Source of the DNA: an uncultured Candidatus Binatia bacterium
GTDB lineage: Bacteria > Desulfobacterota > Binatia > Bin18
Assembly: GCA_965200965.1 (NCBI GenBank)
Contig: OZ241744.1
Location: forward strand, 2,432,001 to 2,496,000
DNA length: 64,000 bases
Direction: 5' to 3'
In this document: in pieces, positions 7,619 through 58,810 of the stretch
Position numbering within the stretch: the stretch's first letter is position 1
Layout: each line of letters opens with the position of its first letter
Position numbers and translations under genes: made by a program
The notes under the pieces: model-generated
The model's input: the letters and a program-made list of their open reading frames with translations, nothing else
What the model was told of the DNA's origin: nothing
Databases searched by the model: none

Positions 7619-7670
7619 AAAGATGCCTCGTCTTGTCTTCCTCTCGAGTCGGTTAAGACGACGCCTCTTT
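7619..7670 (+). repeat. Palindromic MITE/RPE-like element, subfamily A (degenerate), in the 5' region of tldD
   Basis: Arms aaagatgcctcgtctt / aagacgacgcctcttt (14/16 complementary); core cgtcttgtcttcctctcgagtcggttaagacg matches the copies at 45245 and 58762. Confidence 0.85.
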
Positions 7671-7732
7671 GGGTACGACCCTATGCTTTAGCATAGCGGG
7701 CCGGGGAGGCGAAAGGCCGGGCCGATGGACAG

Positions 7733-8494
7733 TCAAACACTCCGCGCCTGCTTGATAGTCTCGTAGGCGAGTGAAAACTCCTTACATCGCTCTTCGGCAA
7801 AACGCTTCATCTCCTCTGGCAGACCCTTTGATTCCAGCTTATCCGGGTGGAAGTCCTTCATCCGGCTGCGGTACGCCTTCTGTATTTCGGCCTCAGAGGC
7901 ATCTCGCCTGACACCGAGCACTTCATAGGCCTCTTCAAGACTCGCATCGCCTGTGTCTTCGTGGCTCTCGGCACGAATCTCTGCTTCGAGCTTGTCAATT
8001 TGCGATTGGTCAAGTCCGATTCTGGACGCAATGTCGCCTAAGACGCTCCGTTCTCCAGTATCCATCAGATCATCGGCATACGCGACGCGCAGCAGTATCC
8101 AGAGAAAAAGGTTCAGCATGTCAGGGTCGTCGCTGCATTCACGGCGAAACTGCTGTAGAACATCGTCAAGCGGGAACCTGGGTGCCTTTCCCTCTCGGAA
8201 GAGATTTTTCGCAAACTCGCGTTCCTCCGAATTGAGTCCAAGTTCGCCCATCAGGGACGTTACAAAACGGATTTCTTCTTCAGAAATACGCCCATCCGCC
8301 TTGGCGACATAGCCCATTGTTGCGAATACGGTGCTGAAAAACACCGTTTGGATGCGTTCTTGTCCGTTTTCAGACTCAGCGTCGTCTTCAGACCGACCAA
8401 GCCCATAGCCGACTGCTGCCCCGACAATTCCCCCTATCGGACCGCCGATCGCCATGCCCAGGCCGGCACCCGTCAGTGTGCTGAACCATCCCAT
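7733..8494 (-). CDS. djlA: DjlA-like co-chaperone (N-terminal TM, TerB-like domain, J domain)
   Basis: MGWFSTLTGAGLG..GGPIGG, VAKADGRISEEE, C-terminal YEVLGV...FHPDK; AGGAG RBS before ATG 8494. Confidence 0.88.
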   Translation of the reverse strand: MGWFSTLTGAGLGMAIGGPIGGIVGAAVGYGLGRSEDDAESENGQERIQTVFFSTVFATMGYVAKADGRISEEEIRFVTSLMGELGLNSEEREFAKNLFREGKAPRFPLDDVLQQFRRECSDDPDMLNLFLWILLRVAYADDLMDTGERSVLGDIASRIGLDQSQIDKLEAEIRAESHEDTGDASLEEAYEVLGVRRDASEAEIQKAYRSRMKDFHPDKLESKGLPEEMKRFAEERCKEFSLAYETIKQARSV

Positions 8495-8636
8495 CTCCTG
8501 CTCTCCTCGGTGTACAGTCGCTAGGCTGAACTTTTGACAAACCTGATCGGCAATTTCAACGGCAACGTGACCGAAAACTTGATCCGGGGCCGCGCCAGTG
8601 CTAGGCTCGCCTCGCTTTTCCTGGGGGTACACGACT

Positions 8637-9296
8637 ATGAACGGTCCACACGATATGGGCGGCATGACGTGTTACGGCCCGGTCGAACGAGAGGACAACG
8701 AGCCGTTCTTCCACGCCGACTGGGAGCGGCGGGTGTTTGCCCTGACCATGCTGTCGCTCGGAGGCGTGGCCAATCTTGACGAGTTTCGGCACGCCATTGA
8801 GCGCATGGACCCGGTTCACTATCTGGCGTCGAGCTACTACGAGCACTGGCTGGCCGCCCTGGAAACGCTGGCTGTGGAAAAAGGGGTGCTCGCTCCGCAA
8901 GAGCTGGCATCAGGAAGGCTCCAGGGCCGAGCGGCTGAGACGCCCGGGCCGCTGCCGGCCGGGGTCGTGGCCGAAGTCGTCCGTCGGGGGGTCTCAGCCG
9001 GACGCGACAGTGGCCGCCTCACCCCACGCTTTGCCCCTGGCGACCGGGTGGTGGCCCGCAATATCAACCCCAGTGGTCATACCCGGCTGCCGCGCTATGC
9101 GCGTGGCAAGCCGGGCCGTATCGAGCGCGCCCACGGCACGTTTGTGTACCCGGACAGCAACGCCCACGGCAGCGGCGAACAGGCCCAGCCCTTGTATTCG
9201 GTCTGTTTCGAGGCCCAGACCCTGTGGGGTCCTGACACGCCGAGCCGCGACAGGGTGTACATTGACTTATGGGAAGATCATTTGGAATCCGCATGA
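8637..9296 (+). CDS. nthB: Nitrile hydratase beta subunit
   Basis: [42 protein letters not shown]. Confidence 0.95.
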
Positions 9297-9306
9297 GGAC
9301 AAGCCT

Positions 9307-9966
9307 ATGAGCAACGATCGCCATCAGGCTCCCCCCGACCCCAGGCTCGAAAAGCGCCACACGCCCGAGCAAACCCAGGCCCTGGAAGAACGGGTCAAGG
9401 CGCTCGAGTCGATGTTGACCCAAAAGGGTCTGGTCGCTACCGACTCGCTCGACAAGATCGTCGAGCTGTACGAAAACGACCTCGGGCCGCTCAAGGGGGC
9501 CAAGGTTGTTGCCCGAGCCTGGGTTGACCCGGCCTATAAACGGCGCTTGCTGAGCAAGGCCACTGCGGCCATTGAAGAGTTGGGCTTGGGGGGGTTGCAG
9601 GGCGAACATATGGTTGTGGCCGAGAACACGCCAACGACCCATAATGTTGTCGTGTGTACGCTGTGCTCGTGTTACCCCTGGCCGGTCCTGGGCCTTCCGC
9701 CGACCTGGTTCAAGAGCGCCCCGTACCGCTCGCGGGTGGTCATTGACCCGCGTAGTGTGCTCCGCGAATTCGGCCTGGATCTGGACGAATCGGTCGCCGT
9801 CCGGGTGTGGGACAGCAGCGCCGAGATTCGGTATATGGTGCTGCCCGAACGGCCGAGCGGGACAGAAAACCTGACCGAGGAAGAGTTGGCCCAGCTTGTT
9901 GACCGGGACTCCATGATTGGCGTGACCAAGGTCGGCTTTGAGCCCATCCACGAAGGTGAACGATGA
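9307..9966 (+). CDS. nthA: Cobalt-type nitrile hydratase alpha subunit
   Basis: Metal site [11 protein letters not shown] (Thr/Tyr pattern of the Co-type), [23 protein letters not shown]. Confidence 0.95.
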
Positions 9967-10003
9967 TGACCGATGGATATGAGAAGAACTCATCATTCAC
10001 CTT
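9953..10003 (+). repeat. Palindromic MITE/RPE-like element, subfamily B, overlapping the nthA stop
   Basis: Arms aaggtgaacgatga / tcatcattcacctt (13/14 complementary), 51 bp; same termini as 44224-44303. Confidence 0.85.
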
Positions 10004-10331
10004 TGCACGCATGACAAGAACCGCTCAGCCGGCAATTGCCGAAATGCCCGGCCAGGCTTCGCTGCCCCGTCGCAGCGGCGAGCTGGTATTCCACGAGCAG
10101 TGGGAACGCCGGGTGTTTGCCCTGGCCGTGTCGCTGTGTGAGCGGGGCTATTACTCGTGGAACGAGTTTCGTCAGCATTTGATCGCCGAGATCGCCGCCG
10201 CCGCCGACCAAGCCGCACCCTCTCAGCCGACAGGCCGGCCGCGGCCCTACTACGAAAGCTGGCTGCTCGCGTTGGAAAAACTCCTGGAGGAGAAAAACCT
10301 CTCCGGGCTGCCCGAACGCAATCAAGAATAA
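9963..10331 (+). CDS. Nitrile hydratase accessory/activator protein (P14K-like); true start may be ATG 10011
   Basis: [47 protein letters not shown], resembling the NHase beta N-terminus; follows nthA. Confidence 0.88.
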
Positions 10332-10344
10332 TGAGGAGCGCGCC

Positions 10345-11508
10345 ATGCAGAAAGAAGCCTTTACGATTGATGCGTCGCAAGATGTCCTGACCGACCTGCA
10401 CCAGCGGCTCGACAAAGCCCGGCTGGCCCGGGACTTTGCCAATACCGGCTGGGAGTACGGGACCAACGGGGCCTACCTGCAAGAACTCGTCGCCTACTGG
10501 CGGGATGAGTACGACTGGCGCAAACACGAGCGGGAGATGAACGCCTTTGCCAACTACAAGACACGAATTGACGGCATTCCGATTCATTTCATTCATGAGC
10601 CTGGCAAAGGCCCTGACCCGACCCCGCTGATTTTGAGCCACGGCTGGCCGTGGACCTTCTGGGATTTTCATAAGGTCATTCGGCCGCTCAGCGACCCGGC
10701 CGCGTTTGGCGGAGACCCCGCGGATGCCTTTGATGTGGTCGTGCCGTCGCTGCCCGGCTATGGTTTTTCCACGCCGCTGACCACCCCCGGTATCAACTTC
10801 TGGCGCACCGCCGACCTGTGGGTCAGCCTCATGCAGGATGTGCTGGGCTACGACAAGTTTGCCGCCCAGGGCGGCGACTGGGGGGCGATTATTACCGCCC
10901 AACTCGGCCACAAACACGCCGACAAGCTGATCGGCACGCACGTCAACCTCATGGTCCCGCTGTCCGTTTTTATTGATGGCCTGCCCGACGAATCGCAGTA
11001 CGGACCGGGCGAAGAAGGCTGGTACGAAAAAAACGCCCATTTTTTCACCGCGGAGAGCGGCTATTCGGCCTTGCAGACGACCAAACCCCAGACCCTGGCC
11101 TTTGCCCTGAACGATTCTCCGGTCGGGCTGTGCTCCTGGATTCTGGAAAAACGTCGGGCCTGGAGCGACTGCAACGGCGAGGTGGAAACACGTTTCAGCA
11201 AAGATGAGCTGCTGACCACCATCATGATCTACTGGATCACCCAGAGTTTCGGCACCTCGGCCCGCTACTACTACGAGGCAACCCATAACCCCTGGCAGCC
11301 CTCCCACAACCGCCGGCCGGTGGTTGAAAGCCCGATGGGCGTAGCCGTATTCCAGAAAGAAGTCATTCTCATGCCGCGCAAGTGGGCTGAAAAGTATTAC
11401 AACCTCAAACGCTGGACGCTCATGCCCTCGGGCGGCCACTTTGCCGCAATGGAAGAGCCACAACTGTTCGTTGATGACGTGCGCACGTTTTTCCGCTCCC
11501 GGCGCTAG
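10345..11508 (+). CDS. Epoxide hydrolase (microsomal-EH-like alpha/beta hydrolase)
   Basis: YWRDEYDWRKHE, HGWP, VPSLPGYGFS, QGGDWG, GGHFAAMEEP. Confidence 0.92.
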   Translation: MQKEAFTIDASQDVLTDLHQRLDKARLARDFANTGWEYGTNGAYLQELVAYWRDEYDWRKHEREMNAFANYKTRIDGIPIHFIHEPGKGPDPTPLILSHGWPWTFWDFHKVIRPLSDPAAFGGDPADAFDVVVPSLPGYGFSTPLTTPGINFWRTADLWVSLMQDVLGYDKFAAQGGDWGAIITAQLGHKHADKLIGTHVNLMVPLSVFIDGLPDESQYGPGEEGWYEKNAHFFTAESGYSALQTTKPQTLAFALNDSPVGLCSWILEKRRAWSDCNGEVETRFSKDELLTTIMIYWITQSFGTSARYYYEATHNPWQPSHNRRPVVESPMGVAVFQKEVILMPRKWAEKYYNLKRWTLMPSGGHFAAMEEPQLFVDDVRTFFRSRR

Positions 11509-11523
11509 CCGGCAGGAGCAGCC

Positions 11524-12780
11524 ATGTCTACAGAAGCCCCTCGGGCCCTCCGCCGGCTGGGTGCCATATTCGCCCTCCTTGCCTTTCCCCTTCCCTGCTG
11601 GGCCCAAGCCTCCCTGGAAAATCCTCAGCCCGGTTCTTTTCAGAGTGGCATCGGGCTGATTTCCGGCTGGGTGTGTAAGGCCGGTTCCATTGAGATCATC
11701 TTTGATGATGATTGGTCCAATCCGTTGCTGGCCGCCTATGGGACTCCCCGGGGCGATACCAGAGACGTATGTCAGAATGACGGCACCAACGGCTTTGGGC
11801 TGTTGATGAATTGGAATCTGTTGGGCAACGGCGAGCATAGCGTACAAGCCCTGGCTGACGGGGTGGAGTTCGCCGATGTGTCGATCACCGTGACTACCTT
11901 GGGGGGCGAGTTCTTACGCGACGCCAGCGGAGAGTTTGTCCTGGAGGATTTCCCCGAACTGGGGACGGATGTTGTGCTGCGATGGCAGGAGGCGCAGCAG
12001 AATTTTGTCATCAGCCAAGTCATTGACCTTGCCGCCCCGGTCACCGGCCCGACCACTCCAGCCGGGCAGACTGCCCGGGTCAGCGAGGTCCTTGACGGGG
12101 ATACGGTCCGCCTCAGCACTGGGCAGACCGTGCGCTATTTTGGGCTGAATACCCCGGAAGACGGTCAGCCATTCGCCGAGCAGGCAAAACGCTACAACGA
12201 ACAGCTGGTACTCGGCAAACAGGTCCGGGTGGTGGCCGCCAGACCCGAGCCCGACGGCTATCAACGCCGACTGGCCTATGTGTATGTCGGCGACAGTCTG
12301 GTTAACACCCGCCTCATCCGTGCCGGCTGGGCGCATGTCTTTATTCTTGACCCGCTTGACCAGGCCGAAGACTGGCTGCGCTTGCAGCGTGACGCCCAGG
12401 CCGCCGGCCGGGGCATATGGCAGGCCGTGGAGGGACCGCTGAAAATCACCCTGGTGCGCGCCGACGCCCCGGGCGACGACCGTGTCAACCCAAACGGCGA
12501 GTATGTCCGCATCTGCAATGTCAGCCCCCAGCCGGTTGAGTTGACCGGCTTTGCCGTACAGGATGACCAGAATCATCGCTATGTGTTTCCCAGCGGCCGC
12601 CTGCGGCCCGGGTATACCGCCCTGCTGTCCAGCGGCCCCGGTCGGAACAGCGTCCAAGACGGCCTGCATCGCTTTCACTGGGGCAGAGGGCCGGTGTGGA
12701 ATAACTCCGGGGATACCGCCTTTCTGTTTGACCCGCGCGGCAGGCTGATCGACTCCTGGACCATCCGGCCACGCGCTTGA
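11524..12780 (+). CDS. Secreted protein: signal peptide, unassigned N-terminal domain, thermonuclease (SNase) domain, lamin-tail domain
   Basis: Signal peptide ending CWAQA; SNase motifs VLDGDT, RYFGLNTPE, DGYQRRLAYVY; LTD motifs NGEYVRICN..VELTG and VWNNSGDTAFL. Confidence 0.85.
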   Translation: MSTEAPRALRRLGAIFALLAFPLPCWAQASLENPQPGSFQSGIGLISGWVCKAGSIEIIFDDDWSNPLLAAYGTPRGDTRDVCQNDGTNGFGLLMNWNLLGNGEHSVQALADGVEFADVSITVTTLGGEFLRDASGEFVLEDFPELGTDVVLRWQEAQQNFVISQVIDLAAPVTGPTTPAGQTARVSEVLDGDTVRLSTGQTVRYFGLNTPEDGQPFAEQAKRYNEQLVLGKQVRVVAARPEPDGYQRRLAYVYVGDSLVNTRLIRAGWAHVFILDPLDQAEDWLRLQRDAQAAGRGIWQAVEGPLKITLVRADAPGDDRVNPNGEYVRICNVSPQPVELTGFAVQDDQNHRYVFPSGRLRPGYTALLSSGPGRNSVQDGLHRFHWGRGPVWNNSGDTAFLFDPRGRLIDSWTIRPRA

Positions 12781-12832
12781 CGCCCCCGCGCCAAGCGCGA
12801 TAGTTTCCCTCCCGCAAAGGAGCGTGGGTTCC

Positions 12833-14668: not shown

Positions 14669-14704
14669 GCGTATCGAAAACCGGAAAACAAGCTTTCTGT
14701 TCAC

Positions 14705-16246: not shown

Positions 16247-16306
16247 GAATGGAACAGGTTGGCCGTCTCTCCCTCAGCGCAAGCGGTCCGAGAAGCTGTT
16301 TTGCCA

Positions 16307-26277: not shown

Positions 26278-29202
26278 ATGGAAAATCCACTGCTGAAGGT
26301 CCATCAACTCGGCCAGAGCATTTGGTACGACAATATCCGGCGCGGCCTGATTACCTCGGGCGAACTGCGCGCCCTCGTCAAACGCGACGGCGTGTGCGGA
26401 ATCACCTCCAACCCGGCGATCTTCGAGAAGGCCCTGTCCAACACCGCGGATTACGACCAAGCCATGCGGGCTCTGGTTGAGCAGGGGGTTGGAACGAACA
26501 AAGACATATATGAACGGCTGGCCATCCAGGATATTCAGATGGCCGCCGACCTCTTAGCCCCAATCTACCACGACACGAACCGGCGGGACGGCTATGTGAG
26601 CTTTGAGGTCTCGCCCCATCTGGCCCATGATACGCGCGGGACAGTCAAAGAGGCGCGGCGGCTGCGGTCGGCGGTTGACCGTGAAAATGTCATGATCAAA
26701 GTCCCGGCCACCCAGGCCGGTATCCCGGCCATCACCCAACTTGTCAGCGAAGGCACAAACATCAACGTTACCCTGCTGTTCGCAGTAGATGTCTATGAGG
26801 CTGCCGCCACCGCCTATATGGCCGGTTTGGAACGGCTGTGCGCCAGCGGTGGGGAGTTGGCCAAGGTCAGCAGTGTGGCCAGCTTTTTTGTCAGTCGGCT
26901 CGACTCCCTGATTGACGAGCGGCTGAACACGGCCCTTGACGTGGCTGACCCGGCCCAGCGGGACCACATCAGGGGGCTGCTCGGCACCGCGGCCATTGCC
27001 AACGCAAAGGCCGCGTATGCCGCCTACCAGAACATTATCGCCAGCCAGCGCTGGCAAAGCCTGGCCGCCCGTGGAGCCAAGCCCCAACGCCTGCTGTGGG
27101 CCAGCACGAGCACCAAGAATCCGGCCTATCCGAAGACCAGGTATATTGATGCGCTGATCGGGCCGGATACGGTCAGCACCCTGCCGGATGAGACGCTGCG
27201 CGCGTTTCGCCAGCTCGGTCGGCCTCAGCAGCCCCGTCTGACCGAAAACTGGCCTGAAGGGCTTGAGCAAGCCCAGGCCAGGCTTCGCAGCCTGGGTCAG
27301 CTTGGCATTTCTCTGCGAGAGGCGACCGATCATCTGCTGACCGACGGGGTCAAAAAGTTTGGCGATTCGTTCGACGCCCTGCTGAGCGCCATAGAACACA
27401 AACGCCAAGCCCTGCTCGGACCGGACTTGGCCCGGCAAGACTCCAATCTCGGAGAAGCCAGCCCCGCGGTTGAGGCGGCGCTCAAAGAGTGGCGCGCCTC
27501 GGGCAAAGTCCGCCGTCTGTGGCAGGGCGATACCTCCCTGTGGTCGCGGACAGACGAGGACAGGTGGCTCGGCTGGTTGTCGGTCGTTGAGCGGCAGCGG
27601 GAACACCTTGCCGAGCTGCGCCAGATTGCCGACGAGCTCCGCGCCAGTGGCATCCGCCACCTTGTGCTGCTGGGGATGGGTGGCTCAAGTCTGTGCCCCG
27701 ATGTCCTCCGGGCCAGCTTTGGCAAGAAAGCGAACGATAAGAGCCACTATTCAGGAAGAGGGCAGCGTTCGCTCTCTCAGGGCGGCTTTCCTGAACTGCA
27801 TGTGCTTGACTCGACCGTCCCCGCCCAAGTTCAGGCCACGGTCAAACGCATAGACCCGGCCCGGACCGTGTGCATTGTCTCCTCAAAATCGGGCGAGACG
27901 ATTGAACCGCAGGTCCTCAAGGACTACTTCGCGGACGCGATACAAAGCGCCATCGGTCCAGAACCAGTCGGGAGCCGTTTCATTGCCATTACCGACCCTG
28001 AGACCGCCCTCCACCGGCTGGCCCGGGCAGAGGGTTTTCGCCACATTGTCCACGGCAGCCCCGACATAGGCGGGCGGTTTTCCGCCCTGTCGCCGTTTGG
28101 TCTGCTGCCAGCCGCCCTGATGGGAGTCGATGTCGAGCGTTTTCTTGACAGCGCAATGCGGATGGTCCAATCCTGCGCCGCCAGTGTTCCGCCCGATGCC
28201 AACCCCGGCGTCAGCCTGGGGATCATCCTGGCCACGTTCGGCCAGCAGGGGCGGGACAAGCTCACGTTCATCACCTCACCGCCAATCGGGAGCCTGGAGA
28301 CCTGGCTCGAACAACTCATTGCCGAGTCAACCGGCAAAAACGGGCGGGGCCTGATTCCGGTTGCTGGCGAACCGCTCGGACCGCCCGAGGTGTACGGCCA
28401 CGACCGGCTGTTTGTCTACATCCGCCTCAACACAGCGCCCTCAACCGAACAGGACGCCGCGGTCGCTGCCCTGGAACGCGCCGGCCAGCCGTCGGTCCGG
28501 ATTACGCTTGAGCAGACAATTGATCTGGGCCAGGAGTTCTTCCGCTGGGAAATCGCCACCGCGGTGGCCGGTTCGCTCTTGGGCGTCAATCCCTTCAACC
28601 AACCCGATGTCGAAGCCAGCAAGCGGGCAACGCGGACCTTGATGGATCGCTACCAGCAAGAAGGTGGCACTCGGCCAGGCGCGTCTGCCATGCTGGAGGA
28701 GGCCGGGCTTCGGCTGTGTACCGACGCGCGAAACGCCGACTCCCTGCTGTCCGCGGCTCCGGCCTGGACCCTGGAAGCAGCCCTGGCCGCCCATCTCAGC
28801 CAACTGCGGGCCGGCGACTATCTGGCCATCAACGCCTATCTCGACATGAGCCCGGCCAACGGCCGGATACTGCAACAGCTCCGCCAGGCCATTCGTGACA
28901 AAAAACGGGTTGCCACTACCCTCGGCTATGGACCGCGCTTCTTACACTCAACAGGTCAGTCGCACAAAGGCGGGCCTGACACCGGGGTCTTTCTCCAGCT
29001 CACGGCCGACGACAGCCCGGATATCGCCATCCCCGGCCGACCCTACAGTTTTGGCGTCCTGAAAAATGCCCAGGCCCAGGGTGACGCCGAGGTCCTGGCC
29101 GAACGCGGCAGACGGTGTGTCCGCATCCATCTTGGTGCAGATATCCACGCCGGCCTGGCCCATCTCCACACCGTGGTCCAGCGTGCTCTGGGGGAAAAGT
29201 GA
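26278..29202 (+). CDS. Bifunctional transaldolase / phosphoglucose isomerase
   Basis: GQSIWYD, TSNPAIF, MIKVPAT, NINVTLLF; PGI half GMGGSSL, SSKSG, GGRFS, EQLIAESTGK, NPFNQPDVE. Confidence 0.94.
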   Translation: MENPLLKVHQLGQSIWYDNIRRGLITSGELRALVKRDGVCGITSNPAIFEKALSNTADYDQAMRALVEQGVGTNKDIYERLAIQDIQMAADLLAPIYHDTNRRDGYVSFEVSPHLAHDTRGTVKEARRLRSAVDRENVMIKVPATQAGIPAITQLVSEGTNINVTLLFAVDVYEAAATAYMAGLERLCASGGELAKVSSVASFFVSRLDSLIDERLNTALDVADPAQRDHIRGLLGTAAIANAKAAYAAYQNIIASQRWQSLAARGAKPQRLLWASTSTKNPAYPKTRYIDALIGPDTVSTLPDETLRAFRQLGRPQQPRLTENWPEGLEQAQARLRSLGQLGISLREATDHLLTDGVKKFGDSFDALLSAIEHKRQALLGPDLARQDSNLGEASPAVEAALKEWRASGKVRRLWQGDTSLWSRTDEDRWLGWLSVVERQREHLAELRQIADELRASGIRHLVLLGMGGSSLCPDVLRASFGKKANDKSHYSGRGQRSLSQGGFPELHVLDSTVPAQVQATVKRIDPARTVCIVSSKSGETIEPQVLKDYFADAIQSAIGPEPVGSRFIAITDPETALHRLARAEGFRHIVHGSPDIGGRFSALSPFGLLPAALMGVDVERFLDSAMRMVQSCAASVPPDANPGVSLGIILATFGQQGRDKLTFITSPPIGSLETWLEQLIAESTGKNGRGLIPVAGEPLGPPEVYGHDRLFVYIRLNTAPSTEQDAAVAALERAGQPSVRITLEQTIDLGQEFFRWEIATAVAGSLLGVNPFNQPDVEASKRATRTLMDRYQQEGGTRPGASAMLEEAGLRLCTDARNADSLLSAAPAWTLEAALAAHLSQLRAGDYLAINAYLDMSPANGRILQQLRQAIRDKKRVATTLGYGPRFLHSTGQSHKGGPDTGVFLQLTADDSPDIAIPGRPYSFGVLKNAQAQGDAEVLAERGRRCVRIHLGADIHAGLAHLHTVVQRALGEK
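27725..27777 (+). repeat. Palindromic element (subfamily B, degenerate) inserted in frame in tal-pgi
   Basis: Arms agaaagcgaacg / cgttcgctctct (11/12 complementary); tcaggaaga...cgttcgc shared with 44280-44301; encodes KANDKSHYSGRGQRSLS. Confidence 0.7.
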
Positions 29203-29255
29203 ACAATGCCCTCTCCCTGACCGAGCTGGGTATCAGCGTTCATTTTGAGACAGGT

Positions 29256-44190: not shown

Positions 44191-44223
44191 CGGATACCCC
44201 CTGTGAGAAAAGCCGTGCCGAAA

Positions 44224-44303
44224 AAGGTGAACGATTCTGAATCTCTTGTGTTATCGCAATTGCCTGTGGGGCCACCGCCTCAGGAAGATCTCATCGTTCG
44301 CCT
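44224..44303 (+). repeat. Palindromic MITE-like element, subfamily B (long form), just 3' of tRNA-Gln
   Basis: Termini aaggtgaacgat / atcgttcgcct; 80 bp; 3 bp from the tRNA 3' end. Confidence 0.8.
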
Positions 44304-44306
44304 GCA

Positions 44307-44468: not shown

Positions 44469-45428
44469 TCAAACCGAGCGACCATCCTGTGGGTCACTGC
44501 GCGGCTCCTCAGCCAGGCATTCAACCACGAACACCTGGCCCTGGTGAGCCACGGTTCTGGCAAGGCTGTCCGCCGCGCGGTGGGCGGCCGCCCGGTGGCC
44601 GAACAGCCCGAAGACGGTCGACCCACTCCCGGACATCAGCGCCACCTCGGCCCGGGCAGCCAGGAGCCTGTTTTTGAGGTCTTGAAGGAGGGGATGGGCT
44701 GGAAGGACGGCCCGCTCAAGATCGTTGACACAAGCGGCCGGCGACGGCCAGCCATCTGCCAAGACAGCGATCGTTGGAGACGGGCCGTCAGCGGTCGCCC
44801 CGAGCATCTGGTCAAAACGCCGATAGGCCCACGCTGTGGAGACGCCAAAAGCCGGAACGATCAGGACCAGCCAGCGCTTCCCGGCCAACCTGACCGGCCT
44901 CAACTCCTCGCCGATCCCCGTCACCCGGGCCGGCCGACACGGAATGAAAAACGGCACATCCGCACCCAAACGCAGCCCCAGTTCGCACAGTCGCTGCTCG
45001 GTCCAGCCAAGCCGCAGCAGGATGTTGAGCCCTTTCAGGACCGCCGCGGCATCGCTGCTTCCACCGCCCAAGCCAGCCCCGACCGGAATGCGTTTTCTCA
45101 GACGGAGCGAGAGACGGGCGGCGAGCCCGGCTTCCTGACACAGCAGCAAGGCGGCGCGATAGGCCAGATTGGTCTCGTCGCTCGGAAGACATGGAGTATC
45201 GCAACTCAGGCGAATCTGTGCCGGGCGGGCGGCTGAGACCATAAAAGGTGTATCGTCTTGCCTTCCTCTCGACCGGATAAGACGCTTCACCTTATCGTCC
45301 AGCCGTATCCGAATCTCGTCGCACAGGCTGACCGGCAGCATGAGAGAATTGAGCCGGTGATACCCGTCTTCCCGCCGGCCCACAATATGCAAAAACAGGT
45401 TGACTTTGGCTGGAGCAAGAACCCGCAT
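44469..45428 (-). CDS. ispE: 4-diphosphocytidyl-2-C-methyl-D-erythritol kinase
   Basis: APAKVNLFLHI, KRIPVGAGLGGGSSDAA, LGADVPFF, MSGSGSTVF. Confidence 0.95.
   Translation of the reverse strand: MRVLAPAKVNLFLHIVGRREDGYHRLNSLMLPVSLCDEIRIRLDDKVKRLIRSRGRQDDTPFMVSAARPAQIRLSCDTPCLPSDETNLAYRAALLLCQEAGLAARLSLRLRKRIPVGAGLGGGSSDAAAVLKGLNILLRLGWTEQRLCELGLRLGADVPFFIPCRPARVTGIGEELRPVRLAGKRWLVLIVPAFGVSTAWAYRRFDQMLGATADGPSPTIAVLADGWPSPAACVNDLERAVLPAHPLLQDLKNRLLAARAEVALMSGSGSTVFGLFGHRAAAHRAADSLARTVAHQGQVFVVECLAEEPRSDPQDGRSV
45245..45293 (+). repeat. Palindromic element, subfamily A, inserted in frame in ispE
   Basis: aaggtgtatcgtcttgccttcctctcgaccggataagacgcttcacctt; 43/49 identical to the reverse complement of 58762-58810. 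Confidence 0.9.
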
Positions 45429-45476
45429 AGGCCCTGTTGTTGCAGGCTCCGGCCACCTATGCAACAAGGTGACAGT

Positions 45477-46337: not shown

Positions 46338-47350
46338 CTACAGGCCGAAAAACTGCTGAGCGTTCTGGCCAAGAATCTTACCCACCGTCAATGCAGGCAG
46401 GCCCGAGAGGAGCTCACGGGCCTTGCGGATTGGCCGGGTGAACCCCTCCGCGTGGGGATAGTCCGAGCCGACAAAGAAGCGGCTATCGCCGGCGAAGCGG
46501 ACCATCAGCGGAAACATCTTTTCTTCCGGGTCGCCATTGACCCGGATATTCCGTGCAAAATACCCGTTGGCCGAACGCTTCATCTGCGAGGTGTGGCCGG
46601 TATCATAGACCATCGTCGTCAGCGCCATACGCGGGTCCTGGATAACATTCATGGTGACAAACATGAAGCCGGGGTCTTGGCCTCGATACCACTCGCTGCC
46701 GGTATAGTGCGGATGCCCGACCAGATGAATGCCGACACTCAGGTCAAGGTCCTGTACAGCCGCCCAGATGGGGTCAAAGTCTGGATGGCCAAAGCTGCGC
46801 CCGCCTGCCGGTGCGGCCGCCGCAAAGATCGTTCGCCACCCGAGCTTGGCCGCCCGTTCCAGCTCAGCAACGGCCAGCCCGGGGTCTCGCAAAGAGATAT
46901 GGGCGGCCGGAAAGAGGCGGTCTTTGTGCGCGGCGCATAGCTCGAACGCCCAGGTATTGCAGGCCCGACACAGGGCGTCGGCCAAAGGCGGGTCCTCAAC
47001 CCCGCCTTCCCACAACAGGCCGAGGGTGGGATACACGACCTGGCAGTCAATACCCTCGCTATACAGAAACCGGACTCGGGCGTCCATATCCTGCCATTGA
47101 CTGTTGCTTACCAAATACCGGCCAAGGTACTGAGGTCCCGGCCGGCTTCCTGTTGTCCATAGCCGACAACCGCGGCCAGCAGGGTATTCACATCAACGAG
47201 TTGCAGGGGCCGACCATCGGTCAGCAGCCGCGGCCGACCCCCGGCGTCTTTCTCGACCCGCGTCTCGTGGCCGCGGAAGGCCGGGTCAATATACTCTTCA
47301 AACAGATTCAGTGGTTCAACGAAATGACTGTCACCATCAATGACCGGCCT
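46338..47350 (-). pseudogene. Amidohydrolase_2-family pseudogene
   Basis: N-terminal piece IDGDSHFVEP (no start codon after the GAGGAGG RBS), frameshift near 47110, then EGIDCQVVYPT...GSDYPHAEG; apparent internal deletion after MVYD. Confidence 0.75.
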
Positions 47351-48898: not shown

Positions 48899-49304
48899 AT
48901 GGGCCGCGATCTGGATGATATCCGTATTCTCGACCTGACACACTTCCATAACGGTCCCTACTCAACCCTGGTTCTGAGCTTCCTGGACGCAGAAGTGATC
49001 AAACTCGAACCGCCGGGCAAAGGCGAGCGGGCGCGGATGATCTTTCCTATACGGGGCGGTCAAAGAGGTGGAGGAGTTTCTGACCGATCCGCATATCCGT
49101 GAGCGTGGCCTGTTGCAAGACCTTCAGCATCCACAGGCCGGCCGGATGGCTGTTCTCGGCTCTCCCTGGCGGCTGAACAATGAGCACCCGTCGCTTGATT
49201 CCCCGAGTCCGGGTCCCTGCCAGCGCAATGCGCTGATCTACGGCCGGCTGCCGGGTCTGGCCGAAGACGAGATGCAGACCCTTCGGGAGCAGGGCGTGAG
49301 CTGA
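48899..49304 (+). pseudogene. CaiB/BaiF CoA-transferase with most of its interior deleted
   Basis: N-terminus LDDIRILDLT..GPY..AEVIKLEPP joined out of frame to the C-terminus DPHIRERG..HPQAG..GSPWRL..LREQGV; only ~400 bp. Confidence 0.85.
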
Positions 49305-49344
49305 GCAGCTTGCCTCGCCCGGCCCGGTTTCCTGTCCTGAACCC

Positions 49345-50018
49345 ATGACAGCCACGAACGCACTTCCCGTCGGCCCTCAGTCGCCCGCAGCGGTTCAACT
49401 CCTGCGCCGGGTCTTTCGTCCGATTCCGTTCCTGCACGACTGTGCCCGGTGTTACGGCACCTGTTTTACGATGCGTTTAACTCCAGAATCCGCCGTTTGT
49501 GCTGTTCAGCGCGCCCGAGGCGGTTAAGGAGATATTCACCGGCGACCCCGAACAACTCCCGGCCGGCAAAACGCGTGAGATCATGCGGCCCCTGGTCGGT
49601 CAGCATTCCCTGTATCCCTCAGCTTGACTATCTGGACGCCACGATCAGAGAAACCCAGCGCCTCCGCCCCATTGTGCCCCTCGTTGGACGGGTGTTGCCC
49701 GAACCGCTCCGCCTCGGCGGCCAGAACCGGCCGGCCGGCGTGGTGGTCGCCCCGTGCATCTATCTCACCCACCATCACCCGGATATCTGGCCCGAACCAC
49801 ACACCTTTGACCCGGACCGCTTCCTGGCCAAGCGGGTCAGTCCCTACGAATTCTTCCCGTTCGGCGGCGGGATTCGTCGCTGCATTGGTGCCGCCTTTGC
49901 GCTGTACGAGATGAAAATTGTCCTAGCTCAGGTGCTGACCGGGGGCGGGCCAGCGTGTGCGTCTGCGCCGACGCGGGATTACCTTTGCGCCGTTTCAGGG
50001 GAGGCCGGTCATTTGTGA
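49345..50018 (+). pseudogene. Cytochrome P450 pseudogene (frameshifts plus internal deletion)
   Basis: N-terminus LPVGP..RPIPFL..YG..F, then a jump to YLDATIRETQRLRP and FFPFGGGIRRCIG. Confidence 0.85.
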
Positions 50019-50966: not shown

Positions 50967-51047
50967 GGTCGGCCGAGTTCTTCTTGAACGAGCGACGGGC
51001 GCTTTGCCAGCAGGGCAAGCAGCACACGCGCCGGCCCTGCTCAGATG

Positions 51048-52265: not shown

Positions 52266-52449
52266 GTCTGTCCTCCTTTGGAAACCAGGCCGGTCGGCCG
52301 ACCGCCTGCTCTGTTGTCCTCCTGTCCTGTGGGCGGACTCTAGCACAGGCTGACCCCAGAGCAAAGCAAAAAAGCTGCCCTGCCCCTGAACACCTTGCTC
52401 CTCCGGCGTGAAGCCGTTATACAGGGGCGGGCATCAACAAGGAGGCGGG

Positions 52450-53130: not shown

Positions 53131-53133
53131 ACC

Positions 53134-53937: not shown

Positions 53938-54033
53938 CCGGCCGCGGCCTCTCCGCCTCCGCTTCCTGTGTCCCAGCTTCCCTTGTCGCTCGGTCTGGTC
54001 TGGGCTATGATGCTTGGCTGATAGCGACTTCTC

Positions 54034-56478
54034 ATGGCTGGAACTTCCGAAAAGACGGCCCCCAAGCCCCCAAGCTCAAAGACTCAGACTCGCGCGCGTT
54101 CTGCCGCCCAGCCGAGCCACGGGCGCGACCTCCGCTTGATTGAGGATATTGGGGCCCTGAGCACCCGCTCGCGCGACCTCAAGCAAACGCTCGAAGAGGT
54201 GACCCGGACCATCGCCCGGCGCATGGCGACCGATGTGTGCTCGCTCTACCTGCTGGGTACAAGAAACCGCTGGTTGACCCTGTGGGCGACGACCGGTCTT
54301 GACCGGAGCGCGGTCGGTAAGATCCGTATGCGCAAAACCGAGGGACTGGCCGGACTGGTGATCGAAACGCTGGAGCCGGTCATAGCCCCCGATGCCATGA
54401 CCCATCCGCGCAATAAGTACTTTCCCGAGACCGGCGAAGAGCGCTTTCACTCGTTTCTCGGTCTACCGTTGCTTGAGCACGACAAGCCGATCGGGGTCCT
54501 GGTTGTACAGAGCCGCAGCCGGCGGCGCTTTGCGCGGGGCGAAATCCGCCTGCTCAAGACCATCTCGTCGCATGTCAGCGCGATTATTATCCAGGCCCGG
54601 CTGTTAGAGACGCTGGAGACAAAAGAGCGCGAATATCGGGCCTATCGGACGCAGATGCGTAAGGCCATGCAACGCCTGAGCGCTCCCCGGCCAACGAGCG
54701 AAAAAGCGGCCGGGGCCGAGGGACAGACCCGCCGGCGGCACCTGACCGGGGTCGGCGCGTCGCCCGGCTTTGGCGTCGGTCAAGCCTACCTGGTCCATCC
54801 CGCAATCCATTTTGACGCCCTGACCGAGCGCCGGACCGACGATTCGGAAGCCGAGTTGCAGCTGCTTCACCACGCGCTGCAGCGTTCGATTGAAGAGATT
54901 GAGGTGCTCAAAGAACAGGTGCGCGAACGCCTGCCGGAGATCGACCAGGCGATCTTTGACGCCCACCGCCTGATGTTGGAGGACCCGGGCCTGATCGATA
55001 AGGTCGAGGCTCTGATCCGGCAGGGCACAACCGCGGAAACCGCGCTCAAAAAAGTTATCGAAGAGTATATCGAGACGCTCAGCCGTGTTGGTGACGCCCA
55101 TCTCCAGGATCGGACGACCGATTTGCGCGACATTGGCCAGCGCGTGTTGCGCCACCTGCTGGGTCTGGAAGAGCGCGCGGGGCCACACGGTGAGCGCTGT
55201 ATCCTGGTGGCCGATGAGGTGACGCTCTCGGACCTGTGCCGAGTTGACCACACGCGGCTCAAAGGCGTTGTGCTGGCCAGCGGGGGCGCTACCTCGCACG
55301 CGGCCATCCTGGCCAAGTCGTTCGATATTCCAACCGTTGTCGGCGTGTCTCACACCGAGTTGATCGAGCCGGCCGACACGCTGATCGTCGATGGCAACTC
55401 CGGGGTGGTCTATCTCAACCCCAGTGCCGAAGTCACGCGTGAATACGGCCGGCTCGACCGGGAGTACCGGGCGTTTACGCGTGACCTGGAAGACCTGCAC
55501 GACTTGGCGGCCGAAACGCGGGACGGGGTGCAACTCAGCCTGGCTGCGAACATCGGGCTGCTGAGCGATACCGTGTTTGCCAAACGCCACGGTGCCGAGG
55601 GGGTCGGCCTGTACCGGACCGAGGTCCCGTTTCTGACCTATCACCATTTTCCGAGCGAAGAGGAACAGTTTTCCCTCTACTGTCGCGTACTCAAGGGCGT
55701 AGACGGCTGGCCGGTGACCATTCGGACGCTTGACTTGGGGCCCGACAAATACCCCGCGTATCTGCACCTGCCGCACGAGGATAATCCGTTTTTGGGCTGG
55801 CGTTCAATCCGCATCTCGCTCGAGATACACGAGCTGTTCAAGGTCCAACTCCGGGCCATTCTGCGGGCCGGGGCGCACGGTCCGGTGCGGGTCTTGTTTC
55901 CCATGATCTCCAGCCTCGAAGAGTTGCACCAAGTCAAAGAACTCTTCGCCCAGGCCAAAGCGGAGTTGCACAAAGAAGGTCAGGCGTTTGACGCCAGGAT
56001 GCCGATTGGCATGATGGTTGAGGTTCCATCGGCAGTGTTGATGGCGGAACAACTGGCCCGGGCCGTTGACTTTTTCAGTATCGGGACAAACGACCTGATC
56101 CAGTATGTGTTAGCCGTTGATCGCAACAACCCCAAAGTTGCCCCGCTCTACGAACCGCTGCACCCGGCCGTGCTCAGAGCCGTGTCTACCACCGTCGAGG
56201 CAGCCAAGCAGGCCGGCAAGCGGGTCAGCTTGTGTGGCGAGATGGCGGCCGACCCGCTGTGTACGCTGCTGCTGCTCGGCATGGGACTCGACGAACTCAG
56301 CATGAAGCCGTTTTTTGTGCCGGTCATCAAACGGGTGCTGCGTTCCCTGTCAGCCAAGTCGGCGCGGCGTTTGACCCACGAGGCGGTCCGCATGGAAACG
56401 GTCCAGCAGGTCAAAGGCCGGTTGTTCAAGGAACTCAAACAGCGCGGCCTGATTGACCTCGTTGAGATGTACCATTAG
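54034..56478 (+). CDS. ptsP: GAF-domain PEP-protein phosphotransferase (EI-Ntr)
   Basis: N-terminal GAF (VCSLYL, EGLAG, KYFPETGEE); TSHAAILA, GVGLYRTE, DFFSIGTNDL, CGEMA. Confidence 0.93.
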   Translation: MAGTSEKTAPKPPSSKTQTRARSAAQPSHGRDLRLIEDIGALSTRSRDLKQTLEEVTRTIARRMATDVCSLYLLGTRNRWLTLWATTGLDRSAVGKIRMRKTEGLAGLVIETLEPVIAPDAMTHPRNKYFPETGEERFHSFLGLPLLEHDKPIGVLVVQSRSRRRFARGEIRLLKTISSHVSAIIIQARLLETLETKEREYRAYRTQMRKAMQRLSAPRPTSEKAAGAEGQTRRRHLTGVGASPGFGVGQAYLVHPAIHFDALTERRTDDSEAELQLLHHALQRSIEEIEVLKEQVRERLPEIDQAIFDAHRLMLEDPGLIDKVEALIRQGTTAETALKKVIEEYIETLSRVGDAHLQDRTTDLRDIGQRVLRHLLGLEERAGPHGERCILVADEVTLSDLCRVDHTRLKGVVLASGGATSHAAILAKSFDIPTVVGVSHTELIEPADTLIVDGNSGVVYLNPSAEVTREYGRLDREYRAFTRDLEDLHDLAAETRDGVQLSLAANIGLLSDTVFAKRHGAEGVGLYRTEVPFLTYHHFPSEEEQFSLYCRVLKGVDGWPVTIRTLDLGPDKYPAYLHLPHEDNPFLGWRSIRISLEIHELFKVQLRAILRAGAHGPVRVLFPMISSLEELHQVKELFAQAKAELHKEGQAFDARMPIGMMVEVPSAVLMAEQLARAVDFFSIGTNDLIQYVLAVDRNNPKVAPLYEPLHPAVLRAVSTTVEAAKQAGKRVSLCGEMAADPLCTLLLLGMGLDELSMKPFFVPVIKRVLRSLSAKSARRLTHEAVRMETVQQVKGRLFKELKQRGLIDLVEMYH

Positions 56479-56665
56479 CCGGGTCGGTCTGTCCGGTATT
56501 TTCTTCTGAATTTTTTCTTGTTTCCCCCGTATTTTCTTGACTTTTTTGGACACGCTGGCTAAAAAGCAGCGTATCCATGGGGGCCGGCCACCCGGGCGCA
56601 CTATCCTGGGCGCGACTGCCGTCACCGCAAGAGCCTGCCTTGCCGCAGGAGAAGAGAGGAGTGTT

Positions 56666-57043
56666 ATGGCAGAGTCAAAGCCGCAGCCGAAGTCTATGAC
56701 AAAGACAGAGATGGTCAAGAAGCTGGCCGATAATTGGGGCGGGATATCCAACCGCCAGGCAGATGACAACCTGACGGCGCTCGTGACCTTTATCACCAAA
56801 ACCGTCAAAAAAGAGAAAGTGCTCAAGATTCCCAACCTCGGAGTCTTCCGTATCAAGGACCTGAAAGCACGCACCGGCATCAACCCCAAGACCAAAGAGC
56901 GCATCCGCATCAGAGCGCGGAAAAAAGTGGCCTTTACTCCCTCCAAGGCGTTCAAAGAGGGCATTCTGAGTGCGCCCAGATCGGCCGCCAAAAAAGCGAC
57001 CACCACCAGAGCAACGGCCAGACGATCGGCCGCCAAAGCCTAG
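56666..57043 (+). CDS. HU-family DNA-binding protein with a basic C-terminal tail
   Basis: MTKTEMV, LGVF, ARTGINPKTKERI; tail AAKKATTTRATARRSAAKA. Confidence 0.9.
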   Translation: MAESKPQPKSMTKTEMVKKLADNWGGISNRQADDNLTALVTFITKTVKKEKVLKIPNLGVFRIKDLKARTGINPKTKERIRIRARKKVAFTPSKAFKEGILSAPRSAAKKATTTRATARRSAAKA

Positions 57044-57049
57044 CTTCGC

Positions 57050-57068
57050 CTTGGTGCGGTCCACCAAG
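57050..57068 (+). terminator. Small hairpin after the HU stop
   Basis: cttggtg-cggtc-caccaag; no U-tract. Confidence 0.25.
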
Positions 57069-57085
57069 TGAAGTGGAGACCGGGC

Positions 57086-57703
57086 ATGGCTTCGCCGCTG
57101 GCGTGTTTCTGTTCACAGTTCAAGCGGCCCGCTTCATACGCAGGTTTACTGGCAGCAGCCCTGTTGCTCATGCCCGCCGGCCTCCCCCTCACGCCAGACT
57201 TCCGCCGTGTCGGAACCGCGGCGGCCCAGACCGCTGTCCCGGGCCGGTTTTCTGAGACCTATGGCGACTGGATAGCGCACTGCGCACTCCGCGATACCGA
57301 GGACGGCCAACAACTCCGGCAGTGTGCTATGGAGCAGCGTCTCAGTTGGCACGACGAGAACTCGGGACAGACCCGACAGCTTCTGACCGTGGCCCTGACC
57401 CCGCGGCAGGCGAGCGGGGCCGAGCTCACCATTCTGACCCCGTTCGGTCTCCTGCTCGACAGAGGCATTGTGCTTCAGGTTGATGAAGGGAAGAGTTACA
57501 GCCTGCCGTTTCAGACCTGTCTCCCGGCCGGCTGCCTAGCCCGGGGACTGCTTGACGAGGCGATCCTGGGACAACTCAGAACAGGTCAGGTCCTTGCCAC
57601 CAGGATGGTCCAATCCGGCGGAGAACAGGTCGTTCGGGTGGAGGTTTCGCTCAAGGGATTTACGGACAGCTATGCGCGCTTACAGCAGGCAGTCTCCCAA
57701 TAG
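57086..57703 (+). CDS. Invasion-associated locus B (IalB) family protein; start uncertain
   Basis: ETYGDW..C, PFGLLL..G, TCLPAGC, VSLKGF. Confidence 0.85.
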   Translation: MASPLACFCSQFKRPASYAGLLAAALLLMPAGLPLTPDFRRVGTAAAQTAVPGRFSETYGDWIAHCALRDTEDGQQLRQCAMEQRLSWHDENSGQTRQLLTVALTPRQASGAELTILTPFGLLLDRGIVLQVDEGKSYSLPFQTCLPAGCLARGLLDEAILGQLRTGQVLATRMVQSGGEQVVRVEVSLKGFTDSYARLQQAVSQ

Positions 57704-57724
57704 ACCTGTGGCTGCCGGGCCGCC

Positions 57725-58750
57725 TCATCCAGCCTGCATCAGCAGTTGCCTGGCCCGGCTGAACAACGTTGAGACCGAGGGAGCAATCAGCTCCCATTCC
57801 GGGTCGTGGCGTTTGCCGCGGCGGTGGAGCATGACGTTAAAGCCGCTGATCACGCCAAAGCGATAGCCGGCCAGCGCTTGATACCAGTCACTATCCGGTA
57901 CCGTGCAGCGCATCCCGTCTTCGTAGCGGGCAATCAGTTCGTGGCCGGCCGGCGCGGCCTCAATCGGTTGATGGCTGGCCTCCCAGCTATCAGGATCGGT
58001 AAACACCAGCAGCCAGCCGAGGTCGAGCAAATGGCCGCTGACGCCCGAGATTTCCCAGTCCAGCAGGGCCACCAGCCGGTCTCCGTCAAACAGAAAATTC
58101 GTCGCCTGAAAGTCCCCGTGAAACAGACCGATGGGGGGCGCAGGGGGCTGACTGAGCAGCAGCAGATCCCGGACTTCCTGGCCCTGGCTGACCCACTGCG
58201 GCTCCGCGGCCTTGGCCAGGATCGTGTCCCAAAAGCGGATTTCGGTCTCCAAGGAGCGCGGCTGCTCCCAACCCGCCAAGTCGCTTTGCCAGTCCAGGCT
58301 ATGGACCTGAACGAGGGCATCGACCGCCTGATAATACAATTCGGCTACTGCTGACGGGCTGGTGTCAAATGAGCCGTCCGGCTCCCAGACATTAAAGGTC
58401 CGGCCCGGCAGCCGTTCAAGCATGATGTACGGCACTTCAAACCAGCGCAGGTCATCCCCCGCCCAACGGACCGTTGGCACAGGTACGCCCCGATGCTTGA
58501 GCGCACGCAGCAGCGGGACTTGACGCAGCACATCCGTGTTGCCGCTCTGCCGCACGCCTTTGGGTGGCAGGCGCATGACCAGCGATTCGGCACCGGACCG
58601 GCCGTCTTGATTGAAATCAACCCGAAAACCAAAGCTGAGGCCGGCGTGACCGGGCATGACCTCTACCTGACTGACCTGGGCATCCTTGCCGTAGTGCGCT
58701 CCGGCGAAATTGCGGAGCTGATGGGTGAGGACCGCTGGATCGACTGCCAT
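57725..58750 (-). CDS. Phosphotransferase (APH/ACAD10-like) family protein
   Basis: VMRLPP, PVP.V, HGDFQATN, LLDWE. Confidence 0.9.
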   Translation of the reverse strand: MAVDPAVLTHQLRNFAGAHYGKDAQVSQVEVMPGHAGLSFGFRVDFNQDGRSGAESLVMRLPPKGVRQSGNTDVLRQVPLLRALKHRGVPVPTVRWAGDDLRWFEVPYIMLERLPGRTFNVWEPDGSFDTSPSAVAELYYQAVDALVQVHSLDWQSDLAGWEQPRSLETEIRFWDTILAKAAEPQWVSQGQEVRDLLLLSQPPAPPIGLFHGDFQATNFLFDGDRLVALLDWEISGVSGHLLDLGWLLVFTDPDSWEASHQPIEAAPAGHELIARYEDGMRCTVPDSDWYQALAGYRFGVISGFNVMLHRRGKRHDPEWELIAPSVSTLFSRARQLLMQAG

Positions 58751-58761
58751 TGCTGCCTCAG

Positions 58762-58810
58762 AAGGTGCATCATCTTATCCGGTTGAGAGGAAGGCAAGAC
58801 GATTCGCCTT
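58762..58810 (-). repeat. Palindromic element, subfamily A, in the 5' UTR of the phosphotransferase gene
   Basis: aaggtgcatcatcttatccggttgagaggaaggcaagacgattcgcctt; its reverse complement matches the ispE copy. Confidence 0.9.

What the first reader, a model, noticed from the sequence alone, without database searches (positions are those of the whole stretch)
7619..58810. Dispersed family of ~50-80 bp palindromic elements (MITE/RPE-like) with AAGGYGAA...TTCRCCTT-type ends
Seen: subfamily A at 7619-7670 (+), 45245-45293 (+) and 58762-58810 (-); the last two are 43/49 identical. Subfamily B, with AGGYGAACGAT...ATCRTTCRCCT ends, at 9953-10003, 27725-27777 and 44224-44303. That is at least 6 copies in 64 kb, in both orientations, in UTRs, next to a tRNA, across a stop codon and inside ORFs. 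No transposase is in the window. Known: Rickettsia palindromic elements and MITEs behave this way. Inference: a lineage-specific non-autonomous mobile element family, possibly hundreds of copies per genome, mobilised in trans.
Basis: partly seen in the sequence, partly recalled or inferred. Interest (0 to 1): 0.78.

Follow-up and report, generated by a model that had tools for sequence, protein, structure and literature searches.

The report
Jumping hairpin with topoisomerase I signature
A 51-base hairpin has copied itself to about 160 places in this bacterium's chromosome, often in frame inside working genes and without duplicating the target; it lands four bases after a cytosine and ends the same way, so it is likely moved by the cell's own DNA topoisomerase I, an untested idea, rather than by a transposase.

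Summary
In detail: six listed copies plus a seventh (29195-29247). The genome holds 158 copies; shuffled controls give none. They are mobile: 55 empty orthologous sites against a sister species, modal indel exactly 51 nt (17 codons), in frame in ispE and tal-pgi. The scan saw this element before on other DNA of this genome (e1-7191693).

It is not a classical MITE: there is no target duplication, arms covary around a conserved loop, and the searches for RAYT, IS110, DDE and resolvase families found nothing in this genome.

New here: in subfamily A, 66 of 70 insertions have a C four bases upstream on one strand (48 of 65 in another genus), and 181 of 190 element 3' ends are CNNN, mostly TCNTY. 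That is the published cleavage rule of bacterial topoisomerase I. Copies also resemble near neighbours and crowd the origin-proximal region.

Best reading (0.45): strand exchange by host TopA. Against it: the older subfamily B fits poorly, a +5/+6 target bias is unexplained, and no biochemistry was done. A lost or unknown dedicated enzyme remains (0.3).

The parts
7619..7670 (-). Subfamily A copy (52 nt), just upstream of the start of a TldD/PmbA gene; shared with G007, absent in four other species
9952..10004 (+). Subfamily B copy across the nitrile hydratase alpha stop and the start of the next (NHase beta-like) gene; supplies the overlapping stop/start; shared with G007, absent in four other species
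27727..27777 (+). Subfamily B copy, 51-nt in-frame insertion (+17 aa) in the transaldolase-phosphoglucose isomerase fusion; four relatives are 51 nt shorter, G007 54 nt shorter
29195..29247 (-). Seventh copy (subfamily B, E 3.6e-8), across the tal-pgi stop; in G007 an A copy has inserted into its arm
44223..44304 (+). Long subfamily B copy (82 nt) between tRNA-Gln and prs; three other species keep only its right part; G007 has an extra A copy at its left end
45244..45294 (-). Subfamily A copy, 51-nt in-frame insertion (+17 aa) in ispE; empty in four relatives; C at -4 on the + strand
58761..58811 (+). Subfamily A copy just upstream of the start of an APH-family phosphotransferase gene; absent in G007; C at -4 on the + strand
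44469..45434 (-). Host gene ispE (GHMP kinase), open through the insertion
26278..29202 (+). Host gene tal-pgi fusion, open through the insertion

Best explanation
This is a 51-nt non-coding hairpin element that spreads by blunt, duplication-free insertion four bases after a cytosine, and it is likely moved by the host's own type IA topoisomerase I (TopA) rather than by a transposase of its own. Shown: size, mobility, no duplication, the one-sided C(-4) target rule, C(-4) at the element's own 3' ends, local spread, DNA-level arm covariation. Inferred: in underwound or single-stranded DNA the palindrome extrudes. TopA would cut one strand at flank-CNNN^ and at the element's own TCNTY^ end, release that strand (linear and enzyme-bound, or as a small circle) and rejoin it at a nearby CNNN^ site, a peel-and-paste exchange like IS608 but with a housekeeping enzyme. 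Replication would then fix the gain. Both strands end in CNNN, so either could move, which would explain why loop orientation is independent of target polarity. Lengths of 51 or 54 nt persist probably because they keep reading frames.
For: Target rule: C at -4 on at least one strand in 66 of 70 canonical A copies (p 1e-14; the nine other offsets give 17-48 of 70). The 70 are those with intact ends among 95 in-register copies of the 113. The rule holds inside genes (31 of 33, phase-matched expectation 16.8) and outside (35 of 37), and on the empty allele in 8 of 8 in-register clean pairs. It is one-sided (Fisher p 0.002). Independent genus, G032: 48 of 65, p 5e-5; 6 of the 17 misses share the flanks of one other repeat. 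Element ends: C at -4 in 181 of 190 A strand ends, TCNTY in 109; all 130 G032 ends are CTCTTY, though that set was filtered for such ends. Oriented G000 targets are also enriched for T at -5 (19 of 46, p 5e-4) and -1 (16 of 46, p 6e-3). Literature: topoisomerase I and reverse gyrase cleave 4 nt 3' of a C through R169/R173/Y177 (PMC3467081, PMC7587558, passages read); the E. coli motif is TCNTT(A/T) (PMC9352719, passages read). G000 has one type IA topoisomerase with those residues (numbering matched by eye to the recalled E. coli motif). The two genomes with the young burst, G000 and G007, gave no hit for Y1, DUF559, IS110, IS630, rve, IS4/5, resolvase or IS1595. Local spread: pairs under 10 kb apart differ at 13.4 positions against 16.7 in permutations (0 of 5000), and the closest sequence lies within 20 kb for 21 of 95 against 3.6 expected.
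Against: No biochemical test. A single conserved base could belong to another enzyme. Targets also prefer A/C at +5 and +6 (G000 37 and 33 of 46; G032 35 and 36 of 43), mirrored by G/T at -5/-6. This looks like two-fold symmetric recognition and is not in the TopA passages read. The T(-5) and T(-1) enrichment is not seen in G032 (13 and 6 of 43), and A/T at +1 is not enriched in either genome. Subfamily B shows no target rule in my first register (16 of 29) and only 21 of 29 (p 0.02, post hoc) one base further out, where about 13 copies would end with T at -4. TopA is in 55 of 56 genomes searched but the element in 28, so TopA alone does not explain the distribution. The C(-4) bases sit in the stem, whereas TopA needs single strand. 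Terminal bases 1 and 51 are usually mismatched (A..C 30, G..T 26, A..T 20 of 95), which simple strand transfer does not explain. The proteome was not scanned exhaustively.
Confidence: 0.45

Rival explanations
1. A dedicated but unrecognised, or since lost, transposase or nuclease makes blunt insertions at a pseudo-palindromic site (K-K-C-N3 ^ N3-x-M-M) and binds the 16-bp arms.
For: Symmetric preferences at positions 5 and 6 on both sides. In other species the arms are highly conserved and the loop varies, like terminal repeats. Patchy distribution in two genera. A strain differing at about 1-2% of bases showed no 51-nt skip at the copies its contigs covered, so a driver may be gone.
Against: The strongest position is one-sided. 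No arm pair flanks a mobile-looking gene among copies under 1.6 kb apart, and no multi-copy IS was apparent in the self-comparison. None of the families searched is shared by the element-rich genomes tested. The element's own ends match the TopA motif.
Confidence: 0.3
2. A REPIN/PATE-like element moved by an HUH (RAYT or IS200/IS605) transposase through single-stranded intermediates.
For: No duplication, hairpin form, and both cuts 3' of a shared short signal, as described for IS608 (PMC6006769, passages read).
Against: No PF01797 match in G000, G007, G003, G005, G032, G038 and other element-rich genomes, while genera without the element have many. No GTAG-type foot in the aligned ends or flanks. 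No conserved target tetranucleotide, only one C. No leading/lagging bias. About half of the copies are inside genes.
Confidence: 0.08
3. A type II topoisomerase (gyrase or Topo IV) or another host enzyme with a symmetric site inserts it by subunit exchange.
For: Symmetric G/T preference at -5/-6 on both strands; ragged or mismatched terminal bases; more copies near the origin.
Against: These enzymes cut with a 4-base stagger (recalled), which should leave a duplication or a 4-base junction window. Clean pairs are blunt, and no 4-nt repeat occurs in 66 copies. The one-sided C is unexplained.
Confidence: 0.05
4. A classical MITE moved in trans by a DDE transposase.
For: Inverted ends, small size, in-frame fusions (PMC2229807, passages read).
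Against: No duplication; arms covary in subfamily A; no DDE family found in G000 or G007.
Confidence: 0.05
5. Enzyme-free copying by replication template switching at the hairpin.
For: Local spread and arm homogenisation.
Against: No microhomology at junctions, constant ends and a sharp target rule. Template switching probably does explain arm covariation, but not insertion.
Confidence: 0.05
6. A fixed regulatory RNA or DNA motif.
For: Some copies sit at gene starts, stops and a tRNA end.
Against: 55 empty orthologous sites. G-T and A-C stem mismatches are equal, 65 to 72, so no strand is favoured as an RNA would be. No Rfam match.
Confidence: 0.01

Closest known systems
Rickettsia palindromic elements (RPE)
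   Same: Lineage-specific palindromes found between genes and fused in frame in conserved proteins; no known enzyme; duplication status listed as unknown (PMC2229807, passages read).
   Different: Sequence relation to RPEs was not tested.
Bacterial MITEs (Correia, ERIC, RUP)
   Same: Small, non-coding, inverted ends, many copies.
   Different: Those have TA ends and target duplications (PMC2229807 table); this has neither, and its arms covary.
REPINs / RAYT and IS200/IS605 (IS608) peel-and-paste
   Same: Hairpin, no duplication (recalled for IS608), both cuts 3' of a short signal, single-strand logic.
   Different: No Y1 HUH gene tracks it; no tetranucleotide guide or target; no lagging-strand bias; many copies are intragenic, whereas REPs are largely extragenic (PMC6006769, PMC3116915, passages read).
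Bacterial topoisomerase I (TopA) cleavage sites
   Same: C four bases 5' of the junction, one strand only, TCNTT context (PMC3467081, PMC9352719).
   Different: TopA is described as a cut-and-rejoin enzyme; my searches listed no mobile element that it moves. The +5/+6 preference and the lack of an A/T-rich context differ from the E. coli motif.

Membership tests
Non-autonomous mobile repeat (RPE-like) | Many dispersed copies beyond chance | tested here: met
   158 copies against 0 in shuffled genome
Non-autonomous mobile repeat (RPE-like) | Empty orthologous sites in relatives | tested here: met
   37 of 71 G000 copies empty in G007; 18 of 51 G007 copies empty in G000; 800 kb of G007 examined
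Non-autonomous mobile repeat (RPE-like) | In-frame insertion in conserved proteins | tested here: met
   ispE and tal-pgi +17 codons; 33 of 70 canonical A copies inside predicted genes
Rickettsia RPE families proper | Sequence homology to an RPE family | not tested
   No RPE sequence was fetched; size differs (PMC2229807)
Classical MITE (DDE-derived) | Target-site duplication | tested here: not met
   0 of 66 with 4 nt or more; 6 and 4 of 66 with 2 and 3 nt; blunt pairs
Classical MITE (DDE-derived) | Conserved terminal inverted repeats | tested here: inconclusive
   Arms covary in subfamily A (102 doubly changed cells against 36 shuffled) but are conserved in the 54-nt variant of other species
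Classical MITE (DDE-derived) | Cognate IS or transposase with the same ends | tested here: not met
   No IS630, rve, IS4/5 or IS1595 hit in G000 or G007; other DDE families not searched
REPIN / RAYT | Y1 HUH gene in the genome, flanked by the repeat | tested here: not met
REPIN / RAYT | GTAG-type tetranucleotide at the hairpin foot | tested here: not met
   Column and flank counts show none
IS200/IS605-type (PATE) | Conserved target tetra- or pentanucleotide and lagging-strand bias | tested here: not met
   Only one conserved base; 24 to 22 lagging/leading
Structured RNA motif | Strand-specific G-U tolerance; Rfam match | tested here: not met
   65 G-T to 72 A-C; no Rfam hit
TopA substrate (works like) | C at -4 of target and of element 3' ends | tested here: met
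   Subfamily A and the 54-nt variant:
TopA substrate (works like) | Same rule in the older subfamily B | tested here: inconclusive
   16 of 29, or 21 of 29 in a shifted register
TopA substrate (works like) | Cleavage and strand transfer by TopA | not testable with these tools
   Needs biochemistry

The most novel reading that the evidence does not exclude
A selfish DNA element with no enzyme of its own anywhere: a 51-54-nt hairpin whose two 3' ends have evolved into optimal topoisomerase I cleavage sites and which is cut out and pasted by the essential host TopA. This would be a class of transposition distinct from DDE, HUH, serine, tyrosine and IS110 systems, and a testable candidate mechanism for orphan palindromic elements such as RPEs.
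Probability: 0.4. Interest if true: 0.92.

Novelty: new variant of a known kind. Interest (0 to 1): 0.72.

Why it matters
How small palindromic repeats with no known enzyme (RPEs and similar) move is an open question; a 2007 review noted that transposase mobilisation lacked experimental support (PMC2229807, passage read). Here 70 plus 65 natural insertions give a base-resolved signature that matches a known housekeeping enzyme. A published mutant (R169A, which switches the preference from C to A at -4) makes the test sharp. If true, topoisomerase I is a source of programmable, scar-free short insertions and of 17-18-residue protein insertions. If false, the target rule is still the fingerprint of an unknown integrase.

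Tried and rejected
RAYT/Y1: none in G000, and it does not track the element across 56 genomes. GIY-YIG: one hit in a 659-aa frame, the size of UvrC (identity inferred). DUF559, IS110, resolvase, IS1595: none in G000 or G007. IS630, rve, IS4/5: none in G000 or G007 among five genomes. Reverse transcriptase: one, interrupted by a stop, and absent from element-rich G001 and G005. Tyrosine recombinases: two, of XerC/D size (identity inferred). Genes between close copies are ordinary host genes.

Replichore bias: none. Strand-specific RNA pairing: none. Codon-phase artefact for the C rule: excluded.

Phylum-wide exact pattern: 0 of 401 genomes, but it also missed G000, so it is a weak negative. The strict A pattern missed species that carry the 54-nt variant (against 43). 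Sequencing runs: no RNA holder listed. Contigs of related strains showed no skip of a copy in two stretches; several copies lay at contig breaks. A 51-nt gap at 58877-58927 in one strain lies between short direct repeats and is not an element. Origin enrichment weakens when clusters are merged (p 1e-4 at 5 kb, 4e-3 at 10 kb, none at 20 kb). The excess of hairpins with 55-57-nt loops maps mostly to one 20-kb bin at 1.68 Mb; it is probably a CRISPR array and was not checked.
Full report
Observation. Iterated profiles give 113 A and 45 B copies at E<=0.01 and none in the shuffled genome.

Anatomy. Subfamily A is 16-nt arm, 19-nt loop, 16-nt arm; 95 of 113 copies fit this register. The loop is asymmetric with a conserved GGAAG near one arm. 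Arms differ between copies but stay complementary: 90.6% of cells paired, 102 doubly changed cells against 36 in shuffles, far above slid controls (34 sequences from G000 and G007). G-T and A-C mismatches are equal, 65 to 72, so the pairing is kept at DNA level and not for one RNA strand. Five of eight strands folded as DNA had z below -2.8; the three others did not beat shuffles. Other species carry a 52-56-nt variant, mode 54, with conserved arms and a variable loop. An A-based covariance model finds the family in 6 of 7 other genomes of the genus and 21 of 28 of one other genus, and in none of the other 20 genomes of the order searched.

Mobility. Against 800 kb of the sister species G007 (about 90% identical), 37 of 71 G000 copies with orthologous flanks are empty, 35 of them A. 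In the other direction 18 of 51 are empty. The commonest gap is 51 nt, 22 of 55. B copies are mostly shared, hence older. In the window, ispE and tal-pgi carry +17-codon insertions and remain open. The B copy at 9952 supplies the stop and start junction of the nitrile hydratase genes. There is no duplication: 0 of 66 copies have flanking repeats of 4 nt or more, and clean pairs are blunt for both the 51-nt and 54-nt forms. A strain differing at about 1-2% of bases showed no skipped copy in two 16-20-kb stretches, with some copies at contig breaks, so the burst is older than that split.

Spread. Copies under 10 kb apart are more alike than chance (13.4 against 16.7 differences, 0 of 5000 permutations), in random relative orientation. 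So daughters land near parents. 61 of 158 copies lie within 300 kb of the DnaA-box cluster beside dnaA at 2.70 Mb. Part of this is the clustering itself, and the peak is left of the origin. There is no leading/lagging bias.

Target rule. Of 70 A copies with intact ends, 66 have C four bases upstream of the junction on one strand or the other (p 1e-14); 24 left only, 22 right only, 20 both, 4 neither. It is one-sided, holds in genes and outside against matched expectations, and holds on the empty allele in 8 of 8 in-register pairs; 14 further 51-nt gaps were placed out of register by the aligner and not counted. In G032, another genus, 48 of 65 obey it, and 6 of the 17 misses share the flanks of another repeat in which the element is nested. 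Six of the seven window copies have C at -4 on the + strand. The element's own 3' ends carry the same signal: C at -4 in 181 of 190 A strand ends, T at -5 in 136, T at -2 in 168. Loop orientation is independent of target polarity, 27 to 27.

Enzyme. A C four bases 5' of the cut is the documented selectivity of bacterial topoisomerase I and reverse gyrase, read by R169, R173 and Y177 (PMC3467081, abstract and passages; PMC7587558, passages). The E. coli in-vivo motif is TCNTT(A/T) (PMC9352719, passages; the logo figure was not seen). G000 has a single type IA enzyme, a TopA with Toprim and zinc ribbons and these residues; G032 has a different TopA with Phe at the third position. G000 targets are enriched for T at -5 and -1 as well. 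No dedicated candidate was found: see Tried and rejected. These were family-by-family searches, not a full annotation.

Model (inferred). TopA forms a 5'-phosphotyrosine link and holds the upstream 3' end through C(-4) (PMC7587558). A strand running flank-CNNN, element, CNNN would be cut at both borders. Exchange of 3' ends would seal the donor precisely and deliver the 51-mer to another CNNN site in the same underwound domain. That gives blunt junctions, local hops and no need for a gene. The palindrome gives both strands a CNNN end. Template switching within the hairpin would keep the arms complementary.

Against. A/C at +5 and +6 is enriched in both genomes and mirrors G/T at -5 and -6, which suggests symmetric recognition. 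T(-5), T(-1) enrichment is absent in G032, and A/T at +1 is not enriched in either. Subfamily B gives 16 of 29, or 21 of 29 in a register chosen afterwards, in which about 13 copies end with T at -4. The terminal pair is mismatched more often than not. TopA is universal, the element is not. Nothing was tested at the bench. I put TopA at 0.45 and an unknown or lost enzyme at 0.3.

Comparison and novelty. It behaves like an RPE (in-frame palindromic insertion) and fails the defining tests for MITEs, REPINs and IS200/IS605 derivatives. Searches of the held library for a topoisomerase-moved element and for this family listed nothing that describes either; I saw listings only for most of those papers, and subscription journals are largely missing. 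Papers read in passages: PMC3467081, PMC9352719, PMC7587558, PMC2229807, PMC3116915, PMC6006769, PMC9960139 (the last gave nothing on intermolecular transfer). The element is a new variant of a known kind; the proposed mechanism would be categorically new if confirmed.

Noticed in passing
G032, loci L194, L205, L206, L212, L219, L220: The 54-nt variant sits at one fixed position inside another REP-like palindromic repeat in six places, so the composite seems to have been amplified by the outer repeat.
   Followed up: partly
G000:C1:2840686-2842131; 2625591-2626840: Three copies lie in and beside a cas3-like helicase region and three in a CCA-adding-enzyme-like gene region; gene labels are by eye from the translated frames.
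   Followed up: no
L245, L246 (G032, G048): Genus g8 has a TopA of a different subtype from the rest of the family, with a longer C-terminus and Phe at the Tyr177 position, suggesting replacement by horizontal transfer.
   Followed up: no
L242, L243, L247 (G004, G006, G003): TopA carries a 22-residue insertion in the core, plus a 13-residue near-duplication in G004; no element was detected there.
   Followed up: partly
G000:C1:2404793-2406298 (L241): A single reverse transcriptase gene, interrupted by one TAG, with an orthologous hit in G007; looks like a defence-type RT.
   Followed up: partly
G000:C1 near 1.68 Mb: 128 hairpin hits with 54-59-nt loops in one 20-kb bin, probably a long CRISPR array far from the cas3-like gene at 2.84 Mb.
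   Followed up: no
window 46598-46602, 49050-49613: A related strain (runs X11, X12) has about 105 extra bases at 46598, and X11 has two blocks of about 700-780 extra bases near 49050 and 49612; content not shown.
   Followed up: no
window 58955-63281 (-): Two tandem paralogous genes, about 73% identical and 2128 bp apart, for large outer-membrane-type proteins.
   Followed up: no
G000:C1:2.40-2.70 Mb: The cumulative GC-skew minimum (2.48 Mb) lies 220 kb from dnaA and its DnaA-box cluster (2.70 Mb), and the element is densest in that interval; a recent inversion is possible.
   Followed up: no
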